A stretch of DNA of 64,000 bases from Escherichia coli (lineage in GTDB: Bacteria; Pseudomonadota; Gammaproteobacteria; Enterobacterales; Enterobacteriaceae): NCBI RefSeq assembly GCF_016026235.1, contig NZ_CP065613.1, one strand, 5' to 3'. Numbering within the stretch: the first letter of the stretch is position 1; every line of letters begins with the position of its first letter. This document shows positions 1,675 to 62,530 of this stretch, in pieces. Position numbers and translations under genes: made by a program. A model generated the notes under the pieces. The model had not been told where the DNA came from. It did not search any database and was given only the letters and a program-made list of their open reading frames with translations.

Positions 1675-3100
1675 TAATGCCAGTCAGTTAAGCAACTGAC
1701 TGGCTCTTTTTCGGGGCTGTGGGGTATTTCCAGGGCCTCTCCTTTACCACTCTCGGGAAGGCCCTTCCCCTTCTCGTCGGTAATTTCACAAGTTGTCCCA
1801 TACTTGCAAGATCGCGCATCAGCTCCGGTATACGTCCCGGTGAAGCGCCCTGCAATGTCATCAGCATTCTCATCACCATTCCGCATGATTCTGAGAAACT
1901 CAGTTGATTCGGCCAGTAACCTTTCAGATGTTCCGCCATTTTAATCATCTGATATCTCACCAGATTATAAGCCAGTAAGACACCCCACAGCTCTTGCTCC
2001 ACAAGCTCCGGCTTTTTACTTCTCAGCGTCAGCCTGCTCAGTTGCATCGTCTGTTTTATCTCCCTGTATCCCAGTTCGATTTCCCAGCGATGACTGTACA
2101 GATCCGCCATTTCTCCTCCGGGGAAGCGCATGGCGTCCGTCATCGACGTCAGCAGATGGCAGACTTTTCCTTTGCGCGTCACGGTCAGCAGGCGGGCTGT
2201 CACTTCATTTCCCAGTCCCGGCCACTTTTTTCGTGCCTGCGGGCTGGTTTTCAGCTTCACCAGATGATCGCCTTTACCCAGTTTTCTGAGCTCTTCATAT
2301 TGCGCTCCCTTTCTGAGAGGTATCATCCAGTGGCGGTGTTCTCCCGCCAGGCTCCAGGCATTTAACAGTCCCAGTGAGTAATAACCTTTATCCATTAACG
2401 TCAGAGTGTTATCGCCGGTTTGTTCTATAAGTTGCTCAGCAAGCTCATTTTCGCTGTTCTTCATCGTGCCGAAGGCTGCAGCCGTCAGCAGATGGCTGGT
2501 CAGTTCCATCTGGCAGACCATTTTGACCTGCGGGTAGAGCGCCGGGTTCCCGGCATGTGTCTGGCGGGGGAAGGCTGCATCGTTCTCTGGTGTATCCGGT
2601 GTGCGCCAGAACACACCATCGATGGCCAGCAGGGTCAGGCCGCACCAGTGCGGATGCGGCGTGGCGTTATGCCAGAGCTGCGCTGTTTTCGTGAACACGC
2701 GGCGGACAGCCTCACTTCCCAGGCGCTGGCGGGCCTGAATAACGGCACTGGGGGCAACGAAGGGGCGATTGCCCGGCAGCATGATGTCCAGGCGATTCAC
2801 AATCTGGTGAAGAGGTTCTTTACGCTCAAGCGCCATGCCAACAATACACCAGACCATCATTTCGAGGGGAAGACGGCGCTTGCGTAGCGTTACAGTACCT
2901 GATTCGGCAAGGCAACGAGAGATGAGTTCGGGGTCGAGGTAATCCCCCAGAGAAGTCAGTGGGTTACGCAGAGAATCGTAACGGGATACCAGATCAAGAG
3001 CCTGTCCAATGTGCATAAAAAAATCCGGAAACAAGTGAGCGTTTCCGGATTCTTACACAGCCACTGGATCGGTCAACTGATCCTTAACTGATCGGCATTA
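1675..3100 (-). mobile_element. IS4: IS4-type insertion sequence, copy 1 (1426 bp, 18-bp imperfect terminal inverted repeats)
   Basis: Ends TAATGCCAGTCAGTTAAG (1675-1692) and reverse complement of 3083-3100 TAATGCCGATCAGTTAAG match 16/18; single long transposase ORF; length 1426 bp equals canonical IS4 as I recall it; flanked by 13-bp direct repeat. Confidence 0.85.
1688..3016 (-). CDS. insG: IS4 transposase (442 aa from ATG at 3016; ORF track extends to an upstream TTG at 3034)
   Basis: Protein begins [20 protein letters not shown]... as I recall for IS4 InsG; contains the IS4-family YREK-type C-terminal region ([16 protein letters not shown]). Confidence 0.85.
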
Positions 3101-4953: not shown

Positions 4954-6627
4954 ATGACTGAATCTTTTGCTCAACTCTTTGAAGAGTCCTTAAAAGAAAT
5001 CGAAACCCGCCCGGGTTCTATCGTTCGTGGCGTTGTTGTTGCTATCGACAAAGACGTAGTACTGGTTGACGCTGGTCTGAAATCTGAGTCCGCCATCCCG
5101 GCTGAGCAGTTCAAAAACGCCCAGGGCGAGCTGGAAATCCAGGTAGGTGACGAAGTTGACGTTGCTCTGGACGCAGTAGAAGACGGCTTCGGTGAAACTC
5201 TGCTGTCCCGTGAGAAAGCTAAACGTCACGAAGCCTGGATCACGCTGGAAAAAGCTTACGAAGATGCTGAAACTGTTACCGGTGTTATCAACGGCAAAGT
5301 TAAGGGCGGCTTCACTGTTGAGCTGAACGGTATTCGTGCGTTCCTGCCAGGTTCTCTGGTAGACGTTCGTCCGGTGCGTGACACTCTGCACCTGGAAGGC
5401 AAAGAGCTTGAATTTAAAGTAATCAAGCTGGATCAGAAGCGCAACAACGTTGTTGTTTCTCGTCGTGCCGTTATCGAATCCGAAAACAGCGCAGAGCGCG
5501 ATCAGCTGCTGGAAAACCTGCAGGAAGGCATGGAAGTTAAAGGTATCGTTAAGAACCTCACTGACTACGGTGCATTCGTTGATCTGGGCGGCGTTGACGG
5601 CCTGCTGCACATCACTGACATGGCCTGGAAACGCGTTAAGCATCCGAGCGAAATCGTCAACGTGGGCGACGAAATCACTGTTAAAGTGCTGAAGTTTGAC
5701 CGCGAACGTACCCGTGTATCCCTGGGCCTGAAACAGCTGGGCGAAGATCCGTGGGTAGCTATCGCTAAACGTTATCCGGAAGGTACCAAACTGACTGGTC
5801 GCGTGACCAACCTGACCGACTACGGCTGCTTCGTTGAAATCGAAGAAGGCGTTGAAGGCCTGGTACACGTTTCCGAAATGGATTGGACCAACAAAAACAT
5901 CCACCCGTCCAAAGTTGTTAACGTTGGCGATGTAGTGGAAGTTATGGTTCTGGATATCGACGAAGAACGTCGTCGTATCTCCCTGGGTCTGAAACAGTGC
6001 AAAGCTAACCCGTGGCAGCAGTTCGCGGAAACCCACAACAAGGGCGACCGTGTTGAAGGTAAAATCAAGTCTATCACTGACTTCGGTATCTTCATCGGCC
6101 TGGACGGCGGCATCGACGGCCTGGTTCACCTGTCTGACATCTCCTGGAACGTTGCAGGCGAAGAAGCAGTTCGTGAATACAAAAAAGGCGACGAAATCGC
6201 TGCAGTTGTTCTGCAGGTTGACGCAGAACGTGAACGTATCTCCCTGGGCGTTAAACAGCTCGCAGAAGATCCGTTCAACAACTGGGTTGCTCTGAACAAG
6301 AAAGGCGCTATCGTAACCGGTAAAGTAACTGCAGTTGACGCTAAAGGCGCAACCGTAGAACTGGCTGACGGCGTTGAAGGTTACCTGCGTGCTTCTGAAG
6401 CATCCCGTGACCGCGTTGAAGACGCTACCCTGGTTCTGAGCGTTGGCGACGAAGTTGAAGCTAAATTCACCGGCGTTGATCGTAAAAACCGCGCAATCAG
6501 CCTGTCTGTTCGTGCGAAAGACGAAGCTGACGAGAAAGATGCAATCGCAACTGTTAACAAACAGGAAGATGCAAACTTCTCCAACAACGCAATGGCTGAA
6601 GCTTTCAAAGCAGCTAAAGGCGAGTAA
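4954..6627 (+). CDS. rpsA: 30S ribosomal protein S1
   Basis: 557-aa ORF, N-terminus [45 protein letters not shown], repeated S1 domains. Confidence 0.97.
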
Positions 6628-13630: not shown

Positions 13631-14556
<926 letters not shown>

Positions 14557-23822: not shown

Positions 23823-25248
23823 TAATGCCAGTCAGTTAAGCAACTGACTGGCTCTTTTTCGGGGCTGTGGGGTATTTCCAGGGCCTCTCCTTTACCACTC
23901 TCGGGAAGGCCCTTCCCCTTCTCGTCGGTAATTTCACAAGTTGTCCCATACTTGCAAGATCGCGCATCAGCTCCGGTATACGTCCCGGTGAAGCGCCCTG
24001 CAATGTCATCAGCATTCTCATCACCATTCCGCATGATTCTGAGAAACTCAGTTGATTCGGCCAGTAACCTTTCAGATGTTCCGCCATTTTAATCATCTGA
24101 TATCTCACCAGATTATAAGCCAGTAAGACACCCCACAGCTCTTGCTCCACAAGCTCCGGCTTTTTACTTCTCAGCGTCAGCCTGCTCAGTTGCATCGTCT
24201 GTTTTATCTCCCTGTATCCCAGTTCGATTTCCCAGCGATGACTGTACAGATCCGCCATTTCTCCTCCGGGGAAGCGCATGGCGTCCGTCATCGACGTCAG
24301 CAGATGGCAGACTTTTCCTTTGCGCGTCACGGTCAGCAGGCGGGCTGTCACTTCATTTCCCAGTCCCGGCCACTTTTTTCGTGCCTGCGGGCTGGTTTTC
24401 AGCTTCACCAGATGATCGCCTTTACCCAGTTTTCTGAGCTCTTCATATTGCGCTCCCTTTCTGAGAGGTATCATCCAGTGGCGGTGTTCTCCCGCCAGGC
24501 TCCAGGCATTTAACAGTCCCAGTGAGTAATAACCTTTATCCATTAACGTCAGAGTGTTATCGCCGGTTTGTTCTATAAGTTGCTCAGCAAGCTCATTTTC
24601 GCTGTTCTTCATCGTGCCGAAGGCTGCAGCCGTCAGCAGATGGCTGGTCAGTTCCATCTGGCAGACCATTTTGACCTGCGGGTAGAGCGCCGGGTTCCCG
24701 GCATGTGTCTGGCGGGGGAAGGCTGCATCGTTCTCTGGTGTATCCGGTGTGCGCCAGAACACACCATCGATGGCCAGCAGGGTCAGGCCGCACCAGTGCG
24801 GATGCGGCGTGGCGTTATGCCAGAGCTGCGCTGTTTTCGTGAACACGCGGCGGACAGCCTCACTTCCCAGGCGCTGGCGGGCCTGAATAACGGCACTGGG
24901 GGCAACGAAGGGGCGATTGCCCGGCAGCATGATGTCCAGGCGATTCACAATCTGGTGAAGAGGTTCTTTACGCTCAAGCGCCATGCCAACAATACACCAG
25001 ACCATCATTTCGAGGGGAAGACGGCGCTTGCGTAGCGTTACAGTACCTGATTCGGCAAGGCAACGAGAGATGAGTTCGGGGTCGAGGTAATCCCCCAGAG
25101 AAGTCAGTGGGTTACGCAGAGAATCGTAACGGGATACCAGATCAAGAGCCTGTCCAATGTGCATAAAAAAATCCGGAAACAAGTGAGCGTTTCCGGATTC
25201 TTACACAGCCACTGGATCGGTCAACTGATCCTTAACTGATCGGCATTA
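23823..25248 (-). mobile_element. IS4: IS4-type insertion sequence, copy 2 (1426 bp)
   Basis: Offset of 22148 bp from copy 1; same terminal repeats (23823-23840, 25231-25248); all ORF-track translations inside it are identical to copy 1. Confidence 0.85.
23836..25164 (-). CDS. insG: IS4 transposase (442 aa)
   Basis: Identical protein to the copy at 1688-3016. Confidence 0.85.
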
Positions 25249-48888: not shown

Positions 48889-48998
48889 TACAGGTTCGGA
48901 AAACGTTTGCGTTTTTTTTGCCGCAGGTCAATTCCCTTTTGGTCCGAACTCGCACATAATACGCCCCCGGTTTGCACACCGGGAATCCAGGAGAGTTC

Positions 48999-50009
48999 AT
49001 GTACTACCCCTTCGTTCGTAAAGCCCTTTTCCAGCTCGATCCAGAGCGCGCTCATGAGTTTACTTTTCAGCAATTACGCCGCATTACCGGAACACCGTTT
49101 GAAGCACTGGTGCGGCAGAAAGTGCCTGCGAAACCTGTTAACTGCATGGGCCTGACGTTTAAAAATCCGCTTGGTCTGGCAGCCGGTCTTGACAAAGACG
49201 GGGAGTGCATTGATGCGTTAGGCGCGATGGGATTTGGATCGATCGAGATCGGTACCGTCACGCCACGTCCACAGCCAGGTAATGACAAGCCGCGTCTCTT
49301 TCGTCTGGTAGATGCCGAAGGTTTGATCAACCGTATGGGCTTTAATAATCTTGGCGTTGATAACCTCGTAGAGAACGTAAAAAAAGCCCATTATGACGGC
49401 GTCCTGGGTATTAACATCGGCAAAAATAAAGATACGCCAGTAGAGCAGGGCAAAGATGACTATCTGATTTGTATGGAAAAAATCTATGCCTATGCGGGAT
49501 ATATCGCCATCAATATTTCATCGCCGAATACCCCAGGATTACGCACGCTGCAATATGGTGAAGCGCTGGATGATCTCTTAACCGCGATTAAAAATAAGCA
49601 AAATGATTTGCAAGCGATGCACCATAAATATGTGCCGATCGCAGTGAAGATCGCGCCGGATCTTTCTGAAGAAGAATTGATCCAGGTTGCCGATAGTTTA
49701 GTTCGCCATAATATTGATGGCGTTATTGCAACCAATACCACACTCGATCGTTCTCTGGTTCAGGGAATGAAAAATTGCGATCAAACCGGTGGCTTAAGTG
49801 GTCGTCCGCTTCAGTTAAAAAGCACCGAAATTATTCGCCGCTTGTCACTGGAATTAAACGGTCGCTTACCGATCATCGGTGTTGGCGGCATCGACTCGGT
49901 TATCGCTGCGCGTGAAAAGATTGCTGCGGGTGCCTCACTGGTGCAAATTTATTCTGGTTTTATTTTTAAAGGTCCGCCGCTGATTAAAGAAATCGTTACC
50001 CATATCTAA
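48999..50009 (+). CDS. pyrD: dihydroorotate dehydrogenase (quinone)
   Basis: ORF 48972-50009; start [28 protein letters not shown]. Confidence 0.95.
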
Positions 50010-57489: not shown

Positions 57490-59130
57490 ATGGAATCTAA
57501 TAATGGGGAAGCCAAAATCCAGAAAGTGAAGAACTGGTCTCCCGTGTGGATATTTCCTATCGTCACGGCGCTCATTGGGGCCTGGGTTCTTTTTTATCAT
57601 TACAGCCATCAGGGACCGGAAGTGACCCTGATCACCGCGAATGCGGAAGGAATTGAAGGTGGCAAAACCACCATTAAAAGCCGTAGCGTTGACGTCGGCG
57701 TGGTTGAAAGCGCCACACTCGCTGATGATTTGACACACGTTGAAATCAAAGCGCGGCTGAATTCCGGTATGGAAAAATTGCTGCATAAAGATACCGTCTT
57801 TTGGGTGGTGAAACCGCAGATTGGTCGAGAAGGGATTAGCGGTCTGGGAACCCTGCTGTCTGGGGTTTATATCGAACTGCAGCCAGGCGCGAAAGGCAGC
57901 AAAATGGATAAATACGATTTGCTGGACTCGCCACCGTTGGCCCCGCCTGATGCGAAAGGTATCCGTGTGATTCTCGATAGCAAAAAAGCCGGGCAGCTCT
58001 CGCCAGGAGATCCGGTGCTGTTCCGTGGCTATCGGGTAGGTTCGGTTGAAACCAGCACCTTCGATACGCAAAAACGCAATATCAGTTATCAACTGTTCAT
58101 CAATGCACCTTATGACCGACTGGTGACCAGCAATGTTCGCTTCTGGAAAGATAGTGGCATTGCGGTTGATCTGACGTCAGCGGGAATGCGTGTGGAGATG
58201 GGCTCATTGACAACGCTGCTGAGTGGCGGTGTCAGCTTTGATGTGCCGGAAGGTCTGGATTTAGGGCAGCCAGTGGCACCGAAAACAGCTTTCGTTTTGT
58301 ATGATGATCAGAAGAGCATTCAGGATTCGTTGTACACCGATCACATTGATTATCTGATGTTCTTTAAAGATTCGGTACGCGGTCTGCAACCGGGAGCTCC
58401 GGTAGAATTCCGGGGTATTCGCCTGGGTACCGTAAGCAAAGTGCCATTCTTTGCGCCGAATATGCGTCAGACATTTAACGATGATTACCGTATTCCGGTG
58501 CTGATTCGTATCGAGCCAGAGCGGCTGAAAATGCAGCTTGGCGAAAATGCGGATGTTGTTGAGCACCTTGGCGAATTGTTGAAACGTGGTTTACGCGGAT
58601 CGCTGAAAACCGGAAACCTGGTCACTGGCGCACTGTATGTTGATCTCGATTTCTATCCAAATACGCCTGCAATAACCGGTATTCGTGAATTTAATGGTTA
58701 TCAGATTATCCCGACCGTTAGCGGCGGCCTGGCGCAAATCCAGCAACGACTGATGGAAGCGTTGGATAAGATCAACAAACTGCCATTGAATCCGATGATT
58801 GAACAGGCAACCAGTACGCTTTCTGAAAGTCAGCGCACAATGAAAAACCTGCAAACGACGCTGGATAGCATGAACAAGATCCTCTCCAGCCAGTCGATGC
58901 AGCAGTTGCCGACGGATATGCAGTCAACGTTGCGTGAATTGAATCGCAGCATGCAGGGCTTCCAGCCTGGCTCCGCAGCCTACAACAAGATGGTGGCGGA
59001 TATGCAGCGCCTTGATCAGGTGTTGCGAGAACTGCAACCGGTGCTGAAAACGCTCAATGAGAAGAGTAACGCGCTGGTATTTGAAGCGAAGGACAAAAAA
59101 GATCCAGAGCCGAAGAGGGCGAAACAATGA
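57490..59130 (+). CDS. pqiB: MCE-domain intermembrane transport protein
   Basis: ORF 57430-59130; likely start MESNNGEAKIQKVKNWSPVWIFPIV. Confidence 0.9.
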   Translation: MESNNGEAKIQKVKNWSPVWIFPIVTALIGAWVLFYHYSHQGPEVTLITANAEGIEGGKTTIKSRSVDVGVVESATLADDLTHVEIKARLNSGMEKLLHKDTVFWVVKPQIGREGISGLGTLLSGVYIELQPGAKGSKMDKYDLLDSPPLAPPDAKGIRVILDSKKAGQLSPGDPVLFRGYRVGSVETSTFDTQKRNISYQLFINAPYDRLVTSNVRFWKDSGIAVDLTSAGMRVEMGSLTTLLSGGVSFDVPEGLDLGQPVAPKTAFVLYDDQKSIQDSLYTDHIDYLMFFKDSVRGLQPGAPVEFRGIRLGTVSKVPFFAPNMRQTFNDDYRIPVLIRIEPERLKMQLGENADVVEHLGELLKRGLRGSLKTGNLVTGALYVDLDFYPNTPAITGIREFNGYQIIPTVSGGLAQIQQRLMEALDKINKLPLNPMIEQATSTLSESQRTMKNLQTTLDSMNKILSSQSMQQLPTDMQSTLRELNRSMQGFQPGSAAYNKMVADMQRLDQVLRELQPVLKTLNEKSNALVFEAKDKKDPEPKRAKQ

Positions 59131-59690
59131 AAAAGTGGCTAGTGACGATTGCAGCACTGTGGCTGGCCGGATGCAGCTCCGGCGAAATTAATAAAAACTA
59201 TTACCAGTTACCGGTGGTGCAGAGCGGTACACAAAGTACCGCCAGCCAGGGTAATCGCCTGTTATGGGTAGAGCAGGTCACTGTTCCTGACTATCTGGCG
59301 GGGAATGGTGTGGTTTATCAAACCAGTGATGTGAAGTATGTGATTGCCAACAACAACTTGTGGGCCAGCCCGTTGGATCAACAGTTGCGCAACACCCTGG
59401 TTGCCAACCTGAGCACGCAACTGCCCGGCTGGGTGGTTGCCTCCCAGCCTCTGGGAAGCGCCCAGGACACGCTCAATGTTACCGTAACGGAGTTTAACGG
59501 TCGCTATGATGGCAAGGTCATTGTCAGTGGTGAGTGGCTGTTGAACCACCAGGGACAACTGATCAAACGTCCGTTCCGTCTGGAAGGAGTGCAAACTCAG
59601 GATGGTTACGATGAGATGGTTAAAGTGCTGGCCAGTGTCTGGAGTCAGGAAGCCGCTTCTATTGCACAAGAGATAAAGCGTCTACCTTAA
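59127..59690 (+). CDS. pqiC: lipoprotein PqiC (formerly ymbA)
   Basis: 187-aa ORF MKKWLVTIAALWLAGCSS (lipobox LAGC); ATGA overlap with pqiB. Confidence 0.9.
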   Translation: MKKWLVTIAALWLAGCSSGEINKNYYQLPVVQSGTQSTASQGNRLLWVEQVTVPDYLAGNGVVYQTSDVKYVIANNNLWASPLDQQLRNTLVANLSTQLPGWVVASQPLGSAQDTLNVTVTEFNGRYDGKVIVSGEWLLNHQGQLIKRPFRLEGVQTQDGYDEMVKVLASVWSQEAASIAQEIKRLP

Positions 59691-59945
59691 TTATAAAGAT
59701 TTGTAAATATAACCGTCTCCGGTATGTTGCCTGAGGCGGTTTTTTTGTTTCTAACGTGCGGAAAAAGTTGTTCCTCTTCACATTTTTTGTACAACCGACA
59801 TGCCCGTGTAGCTCACAAATATGACAGTGGCGTGAATTTTGCGCATTGACGGCAGTTATGATTCGGGGTATTGCTTAACTGTGATTGCACATTTAGTAAT
59901 CACTGTTTTCTTTTCCACCAGAAACCAGTATGAGGGAAACGAGGC

Positions 59946-60113
59946 ATGAAGAGACAAAAACGAGATCGCCTGGAACGGGCACATCAACGTGGTTATCAGG
60001 CCGGCATCGCCGGACGCTCAAAAGAAATGTGTCCCTATCAGACGCTGAATCAAAGGTCACAATGGCTGGGAGGCTGGCGAGAAGCCATGGCGGACAGGGT
60101 AGTAATGGCCTGA
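59946..60113 (+). CDS. rmf: ribosome modulation factor (55 aa)
   Basis: Not in the ORF track (below its length cutoff); read directly: ATG at 59946 encodes MKRQKRDRLERAHQRGYQAGIAGRSKEMCPYQTLNQRSQWLGGWREAMADRVVMA, stop at 60111-60113. Confidence 0.93.
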   Translation: MKRQKRDRLERAHQRGYQAGIAGRSKEMCPYQTLNQRSQWLGGWREAMADRVVMA

Positions 60114-60127
60114 TTCTGTCTCTTTAA

Positions 60128-60160
60128 AAAGAAACCTCCGCATTGCGGAGGTTTCGCCTT
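60128..60160. terminator. bidirectional terminator between convergent rmf and fabA
   Basis: aaacctccg-cattg-cggaggttt hairpin with T/A runs on both sides. Confidence 0.75.
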
Positions 60161-60182
60161 TTGATACTCTGTCTGATTATAA

Positions 60183-60701
60183 TCAGAAGGCAGACGTATC
60201 CTGGAACAGACCGACTTTCAGGTCGCTGGCGGTATAGATCAGACGACCATCAACCAGCACTTCGCCATCTGCCAGACCCATAATCAGACGACGATTAACA
60301 ATGCGTTTAAAGTGAATACGGTAGGTCACTTTTTTCGCTGTCGGCAGTACCTGACCAGTGAATTTCACTTCGCCAACGCCCAGCGCGCGGCCTTTACCTT
60401 CGCCGCCCAGCCAGCCGAGGTAGAACCCTACCAGCTGCCACATTGCGTCCAGGCCCAGGCATCCCGGCATAACCGGATCGCCAATAAAGTGGCATCCGAA
60501 GAACCACAGATCCGGATTGATATCCAGTTCTGCTTCAACATACCCTTTGTCGAAGTTACCACCCGTTTCGGTCATTTTGACCACACGGTCCATCATCAGC
60601 ATGTTCGGTGCTGGCAATTGCGGGCCTTTAGCGCCAAACAGTTCACCGCGACCAGAGGCAAGAAGGTCTTCTTTTGTATAGGATTCGCGTTTATCTACCA
60701 T
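60183..60701 (-). CDS. fabA: 3-hydroxydecanoyl-ACP dehydratase/isomerase
   Basis: Start [43 protein letters not shown] at 60701 (ORF track over-extends upstream to 60899). Confidence 0.95.
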
Positions 60702-60739
60702 GTTCTCTGTAAGCCTTATTTTATTGAAGCACGCAGGAT

Positions 60740-60775
60740 AGCTAACACGTGTACGCTGAACAAGTCCGATCAGTT
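60740..60775 (-). promoter_or_regulatory. fabA promoter operators: FabR-type palindrome (60740-60757) and FadR-type site (60759-60775)
   Basis: Minus strand reads AACTGATCGGACTTGTT (FadR-like) followed by AGCGTACACGTGTTAGCT (perfect palindrome, FabR-like) just upstream of fabA. Confidence 0.65.
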
Positions 60776-62530
60776 CGGAATAAACCAGTTCAGCCAACGT
60801 AATGGCCATGGAAAACGGTGACGTCCTTCCTGTTGCGATGCTTGCGCGATACGTTCCTGGATGGTTTGCATCAGCGTCGTTTGGCCTTCGCCATCCCACA
60901 CCAGATTTAATAATAACGGCAGTGCGTCAGTCACATCGTCTACTGCCCAGATGGTGAATTTGCCTTCTTCTACCGCTTTCACCAGTTCACTGTGAAGACT
61001 TAAATGGCGAACGTTAGCAGTGGGGATAATGACACCTTGTTTACCCGTTAACTCACGTTGCTGGCAAATAGCAAAGAAGCCTTCGATTTTCTCATTTAAA
61101 CCACCGACCGGCTGGGCGCGACCGAACTGATCGACTGAACCTGTGATAGCGATACTCTGATTCACCGGCACATCAGCGAGGGCGCTTATCAGGGCGCAGA
61201 GTTCAGCCATCGAGGCACTATCTCCATCCACTTCACTGTATGACTGCTCAAATGTCAGCGATGCTGAGAAGGGGATCTGTTGCTCAAGCTGTAGTTCCGA
61301 CATCAGGAACGCCTGCATGATCATCATCCCTTTCGCATGGATATTGCCGCCAAGCTCCGCTTTGCGTTCGATGTCGGTGAATTCACCATCGCCAATATGC
61401 ACAACGCAGCTAATGCGAGAAGGTTCGCCAAAAGCGCGTGGATGACCCGGAAATTCAATGACCGAAAGGGCGTTAATTTGCCCGATGCGTTCGCCTTCGG
61501 TTTCAATCAGGATTTGCTCCTGAAGGATCTCATCCTGCATGCGTTCAGCGAGGAAACCTTCGCGCCATTCACGCTGCTGTAGCATTAAGTTTAGCTGCTC
61601 GCCGGAGAAGGTGTCGCCATCACACAGGGAGGCGACTTCTTTACACTGGCGGAGGATCCACTGCGGGCTAAGCGGAAGTGTTTCTTGTTCACCGGTGTAG
61701 CGTGCTGCTTCGCGGATAAGTATCGGCCAGGCATCCGCTCCCGGTGCAGGTAAGTGATTATGTCTGGCGGTAAATGTCACCCAGCGACACCACTGGCTTA
61801 CTGACTCCGCATCGACAATCTGGAGAGTATCTTCAAATTCGCTATAAATAGCCTGCTCTGAAAGCTCTGGCTCCATCTCCTGGAAATCAGCCAATGATTC
61901 GCGTTCGCCTACCAGAATGACTTTCAGCTTCAATGGCATCGAAGGCACAGAGACGGGGAGAGGGCGCGACTCATCAAACGCAACCCAGTCAAAACGCTCG
62001 CGGTTAACGATATTTTTCAGCCGCATCCACAGCAGAGGTTGCGCCAGTAGTGTACGCAAAGAGATGATGAGAATACCGCCATTTGCCTGATGCACCAGAC
62101 CAGGCTGCAGGGTAATGTCGCCATTAAACTGGCGCAGGCAGCCAAAGAGTTGCTCCGCTTCTACCCAGTCGGCAGCGACAACTTGCGTTAAAGTCGCAAA
62201 ATTATCATCTGCACTCACTGCGTTACGTAAGCGGATGGTGTGGCCGGAAACCTCATAGTGACCGCCCACCAGTTGGCCTGCATCACTTTGTAGCGCACGT
62301 GCCGCATCGGCAATAAGATTCAGATACTCAGACTCTTCCGGGGCCTTCGCCAGCATAAAAGAGGAGGATGCTCGCGTATGCAGCAACTGCTCCAGCGCAA
62401 ATTGCAGTCGCGGTTGAGTATCACTGAATAAAGGATCGTTTTCGTCAATCAAATGTGGCTGAGCAAATATTTCCTGATAGCTATCGGTATCAGGAACCAG
62501 GTCACGCCATGCAAGTTTCGTAATGGTCAA
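60770..62530 (-). CDS. ycbZ: Lon-like protease homologue
   Basis: 586-aa ORF with Lon protease C-terminal domain features. Confidence 0.85.

What the first reader, a model, noticed from the sequence alone, without database searches (positions are those of the whole stretch)
59946..60113. rmf (55 aa) is absent from the ORF track but clearly encoded
The track has a 60-aa floor and instead lists an overlapping out-of-frame 65-aa ORF (59930-60127). Reading the sequence gives the ribosome modulation factor ORF MKRQKRDRLERAHQRG...ADRVVMA. This shows that small genes can be missed in this window by ORF length cutoffs.
Basis: partly seen in the sequence, partly recalled or inferred. Interest (0 to 1): 0.3.

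Follow-up and report, generated by a model that had tools for sequence, protein, structure and literature searches.

The report
rmf, the ribosome hibernation gene

Summary
Confirmed and already known. Window 59946-60113 (+) encodes a 55-aa protein that is 100% identical to E. coli ribosome modulation factor (Rmf) in ribosome-bound structures (6H4N, 4V8G). It scores 79.6 bits on Pfam RMF and 92.1 bits on the NCBIfam Rmf equivalog. RefSeq annotates rmf at exactly these coordinates, between pqiC and fabA, and 5425 of 5426 complete E. coli genomes carry the region. With its default 60-aa floor the ORF tool lists only the overlapping 65-aa ORF (59930-60127). That ORF is spurious: it matches no family. 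Across 79 gammaproteobacterial orthologues its frame takes 1568 non-synonymous against 180 synonymous codon changes and 88 stops, and it stays open in only 17 of 79. The Rmf frame takes 793 against 884 and no stops. In curated annotation rmf is the only gene under 60 aa in this window. The expression signals are intact: a sigma-70-like promoter, the published double-SD bulged leader stem, and a terminator hairpin shared with fabA. One by-product deserves a look. A stem-loop at 59881-59903 shows strong covariation across more than 20 genera and matches no Rfam family. It implies a transcript start about 7 nt upstream of the published -58 site.

The parts
59946..60113 (+). rmf coding sequence (55 codons plus TGA)
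   Evidence: Translation. 100% identical to the PDB Rmf chains. Pfam and NCBIfam hits above their cut-offs. RefSeq CDS at the same bases. No stops and a third-position excess of substitutions in 79 orthologues.
59807..59851 (+). Highly conserved upstream block (TGTAGCTCACAAATATGACAGTGGCGTGAATTTTGCGCATTGACG) that ends in the -35-like TTGACG. Presumed regulator or UP-element region. Its binding factor was not identified here.
   Evidence: 41-43 of 45 positions identical to Klebsiella and Yersinia, against 25-38 of 50 third-codon positions. Its 3' 23 nt are present (3 or fewer substitutions) at a near-fixed distance in 25 of 80 loci. Published work reports many TFs binding this 256-bp spacer (PMC6134199).
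59846..59851 (+). -35-like hexamer TTGACG (inferred)
   Evidence: 5 of 6 match to TTGACA, conserved across genera, 17 bp upstream of TATTGC. It was not returned by the consensus scanner, which found no promoter-like site in 59650-60250.
59869..59874 (+). -10-like hexamer TATTGC (inferred), followed by the AT-rich 6-nt discriminator TTAACT (59875-59880)
   Evidence: A TAT(T/C)nn hexamer lies exactly 6 nt before the first G of the P1 stem in the enterobacterial leaders read. The assignment conflicts by 7 nt with the published start site at -58.
59881..59903 (+). P1: leader stem-loop (GTGATTGC-ACATTTA-GTAATCAC), probably at the very 5' end of the mRNA
   Evidence: 8-bp stem. 6 of 8 pairs have changes on both sides and 93.5% of cells are paired in 29 leaders from more than 20 genera. 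0 of 500 shuffles reach the observed score and slid registers collapse. Frequent G.U pairs point to an RNA structure on the + strand. No Rfam match.
59907..59944 (+). P2: pyrimidine tract TTTCTTTTCC (59907-59916) pairs with GGAAACGAGG (59935-59944). This is the published bulged stem that contains both Shine-Dalgarno candidates.
   Evidence: MFE folds. Nearly invariant across genera, so covariation cannot test it. It matches the structure and the SD1 (-11) / SD2 (-2) description in PMC7177335.
59932..59935 (+). SD1 (GAGG, 3' end at -11), in the bulged part of P2
   Evidence: Sequence. PMC7177335.
59941..59944 (+). SD2 (GAGG, 3' end at -2), fully paired in P2
   Evidence: Sequence. Folds. PMC7177335.
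60131..60163 (.). Terminator hairpin (11-bp stem, 7 G-C pairs) in the 69-bp gap between the convergent genes rmf and fabA, flagged on both strands
   Evidence: The terminator scan flags it on both strands. Fold energies are -20.2 and -19.6 kcal/mol, z = -4.8 and -4.4. fabA's stop lies at 60183 on the minus strand.
59930..60127 (+). Overlapping 65-aa ORF listed by the default track. NOT a gene: its ATG lies in the rmf leader next to SD1.
   Evidence: No Pfam or NCBIfam hit. Over codons 13-47 of 79 orthologues its frame has 180 synonymous and 1568 non-synonymous codon changes and 88 stops. Over its full 65 codons the ORF is open in 17 of 79.

Best explanation
This is the chromosomal rmf gene of an E. 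coli-type genome. It encodes the 55-residue ribosome modulation factor. When cells stop growing, rmf is transcribed from a sigma-70 promoter in the pqiC-rmf spacer, under ppGpp, cAMP-CRP and several other regulators. The mRNA is unusually stable, and its translation is tuned by a leader stem that buries the Shine-Dalgarno region. Rmf binds the 30S subunit in a cavity ringed by proteins S2, S7, S9 and S21. Its basic N-terminal helix contacts the 16S rRNA backbone. Together with a compacted S1 it sequesters the anti-Shine-Dalgarno 3' end, so initiation is blocked. Two 70S ribosomes then pair into a 90S dimer, which HPF matures into the inactive 100S particle. SHOWN HERE: identity, frame, conservation, synteny, presence of every contact residue, intact leader and terminator. 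TAKEN FROM THE LITERATURE: the binding site, dimerisation and regulation. INFERRED HERE: the exact promoter hexamers, a start site near 59881, and a stabilising role for the 5' stem-loop.
For: Identity: 55/55 residues identical to PDB 6h4n_v and 4v8g_AV. Pfam RMF 79.6 bits and NCBIfam Rmf equivalog 92.1 bits, both far above their cut-offs. RefSeq rmf CDS on the same bases, in the pqiC-rmf-fabA context. The region is present in 5425 of 5426 complete E. coli genomes. Frame: over codons 13-47 of 79 orthologues, differences by codon position are 660/386/1452, with 884 synonymous and 793 non-synonymous changes and 0 stops. Six diverged E. coli copies carry a single CDS substitution, and it is synonymous. 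Contact residues named in the 100S structure paper (R3, K5, R8, R11, R15 to 16S rRNA; E10, R37, Q39 to S1) are all present. Mechanism and regulation: bioRxiv 10.1101/382572, PMC8778775, PMC6134199, PMC7177335. Expression signals: conserved promoter block and leader, terminator hairpin.
Against: Nothing found argues against the identification. There are three gaps. Expression and 100S formation were not and cannot be tested here. The consensus promoter scanner found no sigma-70 site, and I could not place the published CRP site by consensus (189 matches against about 233 expected by chance). My inferred start site (about 59881) disagrees by 7 nt with the published -58 (59888).
Confidence: 0.98

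Rival explanations
1. The real gene, or a second overlapping gene, is the 65-aa ORF 59930-60127 that the default ORF track lists.
For: It is longer, starts with ATG and is open in the window, in Klebsiella pneumoniae and in 17 of 79 orthologous loci.
Against: No Pfam or NCBIfam match. Its frame shows 180 synonymous against 1568 non-synonymous codon changes and 88 stops over codons 13-47 of 79 orthologues. Only 33 of 79 have a start codon at the homologous position. It has stops in K. aerogenes and P. mirabilis. The one E. coli polymorphism in the CDS is silent in Rmf but R>S in this frame. Its N-terminal conservation is explained by the conserved SD region and the invariant Rmf N-terminus.
Confidence: 0.01
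2. The antisense 55-aa ORF (59893-60060, minus strand, GTG start) is a gene.
For: It is open in the window.
Against: It is interrupted by stops in K. pneumoniae, K. aerogenes and P. mirabilis, and there is no protein-level conservation. It is one of many chance ORFs of this size.
Confidence: 0.005
3. The locus is an intact-looking but silent or decaying copy of rmf in this strain.
For: The window comes from an IS-active genome (two identical IS4 copies). In one E. coli genome an IS1203 sits in the rmf upstream region.
Against: In the window the CDS, the conserved upstream block, the leader and the terminator are all intact. The 501 bases 59700-60200 are 100% identical to several complete E. 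coli genomes, and the 2 kb 59000-61000 to at least one.
Confidence: 0.01
4. The roughly 280-nt transcript also acts as a regulatory RNA (dual-function RNA), beyond encoding Rmf.
For: It was first catalogued as an sRNA (Ysr173) in Y. pestis, where its level depends on Hfq. It is among the most highly enriched ligands of the RNA-binding protein YhgF. The whole transcript folds much better than shuffles (z = -5.3). The leader is more conserved than silent sites.
Against: No target or base-pairing function is known. All these features are also expected of a tightly regulated, very stable mRNA.
Confidence: 0.05

Closest known systems
E. coli K-12 Rmf (b0953, NP_415473.1; WP_000828648.1; PDB 6H4N, 6H58, 4V8G)
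   Same: The protein sequence is identical to WP_000828648.1 and to the PDB chains. K-12 b0953 has the same length and the same pqiC-rmf-fabA gene order.
   Different: No difference at the protein level from the PDB chains or WP_000828648.1. I did not align the K-12 DNA itself. The window differs from E. coli O145 str. RM9872 (NZ_CP028379.1) by 1-2% over its flanks and by two IS4 insertions elsewhere.
Rmf orthologues of other Gammaproteobacteria (e.g. Vibrio Rmf, PDB 2JRM; Klebsiella, Yersinia, Aeromonas, Proteus, Pseudoalteromonas)
   Same: Invariant MKRQKRDRLERA N-terminus, GY/F-x-AG, CPY and WLGGWR motifs, 55-60 aa. 2JRM matches at E = 4e-19.
   Different: The C-terminal tails diverge in sequence and length. 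The leader RNA architecture (P1 + U/C tract + double SD) is confined to Enterobacterales and, in part, Aeromonas and Proteus. Vibrio and Pseudoalteromonas leaders look different.
Rmf/CrpP fold relatives (CrpP ICE-associated proteins; phage Rmf-like proteins)
   Same: A weak shared fold signature: the Rmf_CrpP subfamily model scores 51.1 bits, above its cut-off of 28.
   Different: The specific models are not met: CrpP_fam scores 19.8 against 55 and Rmf_like_phage 24.1 against 40. The gene is chromosomal and in conserved synteny, not on a mobile element.
Pseudomonas 'rmf' RNA motif in Rfam (recalled from memory as RF01755, Weinberg et al. 2010), a conserved structure in rmf 5' UTRs
   Same: By analogy only: a conserved structured leader upstream of rmf that involves the ribosome-binding site.
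   Different: The window leader does not match it, or any Rfam family, even at E <= 10. Any resemblance is functional at most, not family membership.
5'-terminal stem-loop mRNA stabilisers such as the ompA leader (own knowledge: Emory, Bouvet and Belasco 1992)
   Same: P1 would sit at or within a few nt of the 5' end, and rmf mRNA is unusually long-lived (about 24 min against 2-4 min; PMC8778775).
   Different: A stabilising role for P1 is my inference and is untested. With the published start site (-58), P1 would not form.

Membership tests
Ribosome modulation factor (Pfam PF04957 / NCBIfam NF011162 equivalog) | Sequence scores above the curated family thresholds over the full domain | tested here: met
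   PF04957: 79.6 bits against 27.9, residues 1-51 on profile 1-52/53. NF011162: 92.1 bits against 40.
Ribosome modulation factor (Pfam PF04957 / NCBIfam NF011162 equivalog) | Identity or close similarity to the experimentally characterised, ribosome-bound protein | tested here: met
   55/55 residues identical to 6h4n_v and 4v8g_AV.
Ribosome modulation factor (Pfam PF04957 / NCBIfam NF011162 equivalog) | Residues that contact 16S rRNA (R3, K5, R8, R11, R15) and S1 domain 4 (E10, R37, Q39) | tested here: met
   All eight are present. The list of residues comes from bioRxiv 10.1101/382572.
Ribosome modulation factor (Pfam PF04957 / NCBIfam NF011162 equivalog) | Purifying selection in this reading frame across species | tested here: met
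   79 orthologues, codons 13-47: 660/386/1452 differences by codon position and 0 stops. The other two + frames have 88 and 93 stops.
Ribosome modulation factor (Pfam PF04957 / NCBIfam NF011162 equivalog) | Gammaproteobacterial distribution and the enterobacterial pqiC-rmf-fabA synteny | tested here: met
   All 80 loci from the genome scan that carry a species name are Gammaproteobacteria; a few are MAGs labelled only 'Gammaproteobacteria' or 'Proteobacteria bacterium'. pqiC-rmf-fabA order in E. coli and Klebsiella. In Yersinia the order is pqiC-rmf-fabF.
Ribosome modulation factor (Pfam PF04957 / NCBIfam NF011162 equivalog) | Stationary-phase induction and Rmf-dependent 90S/100S ribosome dimer formation | not testable with these tools
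   Needs expression data and sucrose gradients. Established for the identical protein in the literature.
CrpP family (NF033696) / phage Rmf-like (NF041887) | Score above the curated cut-off of the specific model | tested here: not met
   19.8 bits against 55, and 24.1 against 40.
Any Rfam cis-regulatory family for the rmf leader (including the Pseudomonas rmf motif) | Covariance-model match to the leader 59881-59945 | tested here: not met
   No match to any family on the + strand leader at E <= 10. The only sub-threshold hits lie on the terminator hairpin.

The most novel reading that the evidence does not exclude
The enterobacterial rmf leader carries an uncatalogued, structurally conserved RNA element: an 8-bp stem-loop (59881-59903) that starts exactly 6 nt after a conserved TAT(T/C)nn -10-like hexamer and is followed by a U/C tract that masks the SD. 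If so, the real transcript start is near 59881, not the published -58 (59888). The 5'-terminal hairpin would then be the physical basis of the exceptional stability of rmf mRNA, or alternatively a terminator-like leader attenuator.
Probability: 0.35. Interest if true: 0.3.

Novelty: already known. Interest (0 to 1): 0.06.

Why it matters
As a gene finding it adds nothing new: rmf is a textbook, annotated gene with solved structures. Its value is methodological. A 60-aa ORF floor hides the true gene here and shows a spurious overlapping ORF in its place, so ORF length is the wrong criterion. Homology and codon-position substitution patterns resolve the case in minutes. The same omission happened in a real genome annotation (Y. 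pestis KIM). The by-product could matter modestly to people who study ribosome hibernation and mRNA decay. It is a covarying 5' stem-loop that the published start site would cut in half. It offers a concrete, testable explanation for the unusual stability of rmf mRNA, and it suggests the start site should be re-mapped.

Tried and rejected
(1) A frame test with E. coli diversity alone. Six diverged copies carried just one CDS substitution, so I replaced it with cross-genus data. (2) The sigma-70 consensus scanner found no promoter in 59650-60250. The promoter was inferred from phylogenetic footprinting instead. (3) A CRP consensus scan (TGTGA-N6-TCACA, up to 3 mismatches) gave 189 hits against about 233 expected. 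The only hit in the spacer (59767-59782, 3 mismatches) lies in non-conserved sequence. The published CRP site could not be placed. (4) Rfam at gathering threshold, E <= 1 and E <= 10 found nothing on the leader. The weak hits (Phe/Leu leaders, rnk, RsmY, OmrA-B and others) all sit on the terminator hairpin, far below threshold, and were rejected as generic hairpin matches. (5) The primary papers that would fix the transcript ends and the CRP site are not held: Yamagishi 1993, Aiso 2005, Shimada 2013. Supplements of PMC3672283 and PMC10201417 are not held either, and those of PMC6134199 contain no relevant text. (6) I considered the heavy protein searches, structure prediction and fold search and did not run them. 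A 100%-identical solved structure makes them pointless. (7) I considered reading P1 as a DNA palindrome or operator (GTGA...TCAC resembles CRP half-sites). I rejected it because the spacing is wrong, the half-sites change to GTGG...CCAC and to unrelated sequences in other genera, and G.U pairs are maintained.

Full report
OBSERVATION. The ORF tool with its default 60-aa floor lists only one ORF over this stretch, 59930..60127 (+, 65 aa), which is in another phase. With a 20-aa floor the 55-aa ORF, the 65-aa ORF and an antisense 55-aa ORF (59893..60060) all appear. So both halves of the observation are correct. An ORF of this size is not itself remarkable. The window contains 71 ORFs of 50-59 aa and 237 of at least 60 aa, but only about 55 annotated genes. 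The case therefore has to rest on other evidence.

IDENTITY. The 55-aa product is identical over all 55 residues to the 'Ribosome modulation factor' chains of PDB 6H4N/6H58/9IOT and 4V8G (E about 3e-34). It matches the 2JRM Rmf at E = 4e-19. It scores 79.6 bits on Pfam RMF (PF04957, cut-off 27.9) and 92.1 bits on the NCBIfam Rmf equivalog NF011162 (cut-off 40). The related CrpP and phage Rmf-like models are not met. The 65-aa ORF hits nothing. RefSeq annotates rmf (WP_000828648.1) at exactly the corresponding bases in E. coli O145 RM9872, between pqiC (window 59127-59690, +) and fabA (60183-60701, -). K-12 MG1655 has the same arrangement, with rmf as b0953 at 1015715-1015882. The 501 bases around the gene occur in 5425 of 5426 complete E. 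coli genomes, in 4750 of them at 99% identity or more.

WHICH FRAME IS REAL. E. coli diversity alone was too thin. Six diverged copies had one substitution in the CDS (60008 C>A), silent in Rmf but R>S in the 65-aa frame, against 3 to 6 in the flanks of each copy. The 'plasmids' collection happened to hold mislabelled chromosomal records with rmf from Klebsiella, Yersinia, Aeromonas and Proteus. One plain-DNA scan of the species-representative genomes, using the back-translated N-terminus, returned 80 further loci. All that carry a species name are Gammaproteobacteria; a few are MAGs labelled only at class or phylum level. I used 79 collinear orthologues and left out codons 1-12, which the search pattern had fixed. 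Differences from the window then fall 660/386/1452 on codon positions 1/2/3. The Rmf frame shows 884 synonymous and 793 non-synonymous codon changes and no stop. The frame of the 65-aa ORF shows 180 and 1568, with 88 stops, and the third frame 168 and 1589, with 93 stops. The 65-aa ORF is free of internal stops in only 17 of 79 loci, and only 33 have a start codon at the homologous position. The antisense ORF is broken in Klebsiella and Proteus. The 65-aa ORF is a by-product: its ATG (59930) sits in the rmf leader next to the first Shine-Dalgarno element.

HOW IT WORKS (literature for the identical protein, plus what the sequence shows). Rmf is induced when growth stops and converts 70S ribosomes into inactive dimers. 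It gives a 90S dimer, which HPF matures to the 100S particle (PMC8778775). [quoted passage not shown] Arg3, Lys5, Arg8, Arg11 and Arg15 hydrogen-bond to the 16S rRNA backbone. The linker and helix 2 fix the 3' end of 16S rRNA, including part of the anti-SD. Glu10, Arg37 and Gln39 contact domain 4 of a compacted S1. SD-anti-SD pairing is excluded, and dimerisation follows indirectly through S1 and S2 (bioRxiv 10.1101/382572). All eight named residues are present in the window protein. Transcription depends mainly on ppGpp, is activated by cAMP-CRP, does not need RpoS, and involves many further regulators. The mRNA half-life is about 24 min, against the usual 2-4 min.

EXPRESSION SIGNALS IN THE WINDOW. 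Aligning the pqiC-rmf spacer with Klebsiella and Yersinia shows a mosaic.
- The 5' part (59691-59806) is poorly conserved: 46-61 of 116 positions.
- A 45-bp block (59807-59851) is almost invariant: 41-43 of 45, against 25-38 of 50 silent third positions in the CDS. It ends in TTGACG.
- The next 29 bp are variable apart from a TAT(T/C)nn hexamer (TATTGC, 59869-59874; 17-bp spacing).
- The leader is again highly conserved.
The 3' 23 nt of the block recur, with 3 or fewer substitutions, at a near-fixed distance in 25 of the 80 loci. I read TTGACG/TATTGC as the -35 and -10 elements, with an AT-rich discriminator (TTAACT). From general knowledge, that suits a ppGpp/DksA-activated promoter. This is an inference. 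The consensus scanner found no promoter, and I could not locate the CRP site by consensus.

Downstream, the pyrimidine tract 59907-59916 pairs with 59935-59944. This reproduces the published bulged stem of nucleotides -1 to -41. In it SD1 (GAGG ending at -11, 59932-59935) is in the bulged region and SD2 (GAGG ending at -2, 59941-59944) is double-stranded. That stem is the basis of polyamine control of Rmf translation (PMC7177335). After the stop codon, an 11-bp G+C-rich hairpin (60131-60155) lies in the 69-bp gap to the convergent gene fabA. The terminator scan flags it on both strands, with T-rich tails of moderate quality. From memory of Aiso et al. 2005, which I could not read here, most rmf mRNA 3' ends map to this terminator.

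BY-PRODUCT: A COVARYING 5' STEM-LOOP. Bases 59881-59903 (GTGATTGC-ACATTTA-GTAATCAC) form an 8-bp hairpin. In 29 leaders from more than 20 genera the sequence of the stem changes freely while pairing is kept. Examples are Hafnia GTAGTAGC/GCTACTAC, Edwardsiella GTGGCGGC/GCCGACCAC and Aeromonas GCGACCGG/CTGGTCGC.
- 6 of 8 pairs have changes on both sides, and 93.5% of cells are paired.
- 0 of 500 shuffles reach the observed covariation score.
- Pairing across the whole tested structure (P1 plus P2) drops from 91.8% to between 34% and 62% when the register is slid (smaller set).
One pair is G.U in 21 of 29 sequences. That fits an RNA on the + strand and argues against a DNA palindrome. In the enterobacterial leaders I read, the TAT(T/C)nn hexamer lies exactly 6 nt before the first G of the stem. 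This predicts a start at about 59881, a 65-nt leader, and a hairpin at the extreme 5' end. The published statement places the single RpoD promoter at '-58' from the initiation codon, i.e. 59888 (PMC6134199). That would cut the 5' arm off the transcript: folding from 59888 loses the hairpin entirely (z = 0.06, against -2.37 from 59881). I could not resolve this because the primary mapping papers are not held. No Rfam family matches the leader, even at E <= 10. My preferred reading is that P1 is a 5'-terminal stabiliser, in line with the long half-life of the mRNA. That is an inference. Its terminator-like look (hairpin plus UGUUUUCUUUU, flagged, and more pronounced in Aeromonas) leaves a leader attenuator as the alternative. 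Other reports fit heavy post-transcriptional control of this mRNA. Its level is Hfq-dependent in Y. pestis, and it is among the most highly enriched ligands of the RNA-binding protein YhgF.

Both PGAP (RM9872) and the curated K-12 annotation show rmf as the only CDS shorter than 60 aa in the region this window covers. ycaR (13631-13813) is exactly 60 aa. So the cut-off hides one known gene here. The risk is nevertheless real: rmf itself was missing from the Y. pestis KIM annotation and was rediscovered as 'sRNA' Ysr173 (PMC3672283).

VERDICT. Observation confirmed, interpretation supported, and the gene is already known in every respect: sequence, structure, mechanism and regulation. Interest is low. 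The only element with some novelty potential is the covarying 5' stem-loop and the start-site discrepancy it implies.

Noticed in passing
window 59881-59903 (with 59869-59880): An 8-bp stem-loop in the rmf leader shows strong covariation across more than 20 genera and starts exactly 6 nt after a conserved TAT(T/C)nn hexamer. The published start site (-58 = 59888) would cut it in half. It matches no Rfam family.
   Followed up: partly
window 59807-59851: A 45-bp block just upstream of, and including, the -35-like TTGACG is nearly invariant from E. coli to Yersinia (41-43 of 45), far better conserved than silent codon positions. Its 3' 23 nt recur in 25 of 80 loci. I could not assign a binding factor, and no CRP consensus is evident.
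   Followed up: partly
window 1675-3100 and 23823-25248: Two 100%-identical 1426-bp IS4 copies in the same orientation (448-aa transposase on the minus strand; Pfam Nterm_IS4 + DDE_Tnp_1). Each has a 13-bp target duplication (CGGCACATTGTCG; GCACATTACGGCG; both contain GCACATT). They lie in the aroA-ycaL and mukB-ldtD spacers, about 20.7 kb apart, and bracket rpsA, msbA, lpxK, kdsB and mukFEB. 39 complete E. coli genomes share the aroA-ycaL insertion. No genome in the collection matches the window exactly.
   Followed up: partly
L137 (E. coli strain 350, NZ_CP018243.1), equivalent to window ~59824: One E. coli genome has an IS1203 (IS3 family) inserted inside the conserved block upstream of rmf. 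It separates most of the block from the promoter: a natural promoter-disruption allele.
   Followed up: partly
window 60131-60163: A single 11-bp G+C-rich hairpin lies between the convergent genes rmf and fabA, and the terminator scan flags it on both strands. It attracts several weak, sub-threshold Rfam hits (Phe/Leu leaders, rnk leader, RsmY, OmrA-B) that are just generic terminator resemblance.
   Followed up: yes
window 48931-49004: The only Rfam family reaching its gathering score anywhere in the window is the PyrD leader (RF02373, 97.9 bits), upstream of pyrD. It is a known element.
   Followed up: no
window 4954-6627: rpsA (ribosomal protein S1, 557 aa) lies in the same window. S1 is the protein whose compacted form Rmf stabilises in the 100S particle. 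Probably coincidence: the two genes are 53 kb apart.
   Followed up: no
window 13631-13813: ycaR encodes exactly 60 aa, so it only just clears the ORF track's floor. It is the next-smallest annotated gene in the window.
   Followed up: yes
plasmid collection hits H44, H46, H49, H51, H54, H55: Several multi-megabase records labelled 'plasmid' in PLSDB (E. coli, K. pneumoniae, Aeromonas caviae, Proteus mirabilis; 4-5 Mb) are evidently chromosomes. They carry rmf in its chromosomal context, and some show no listed gene over it.
   Followed up: no
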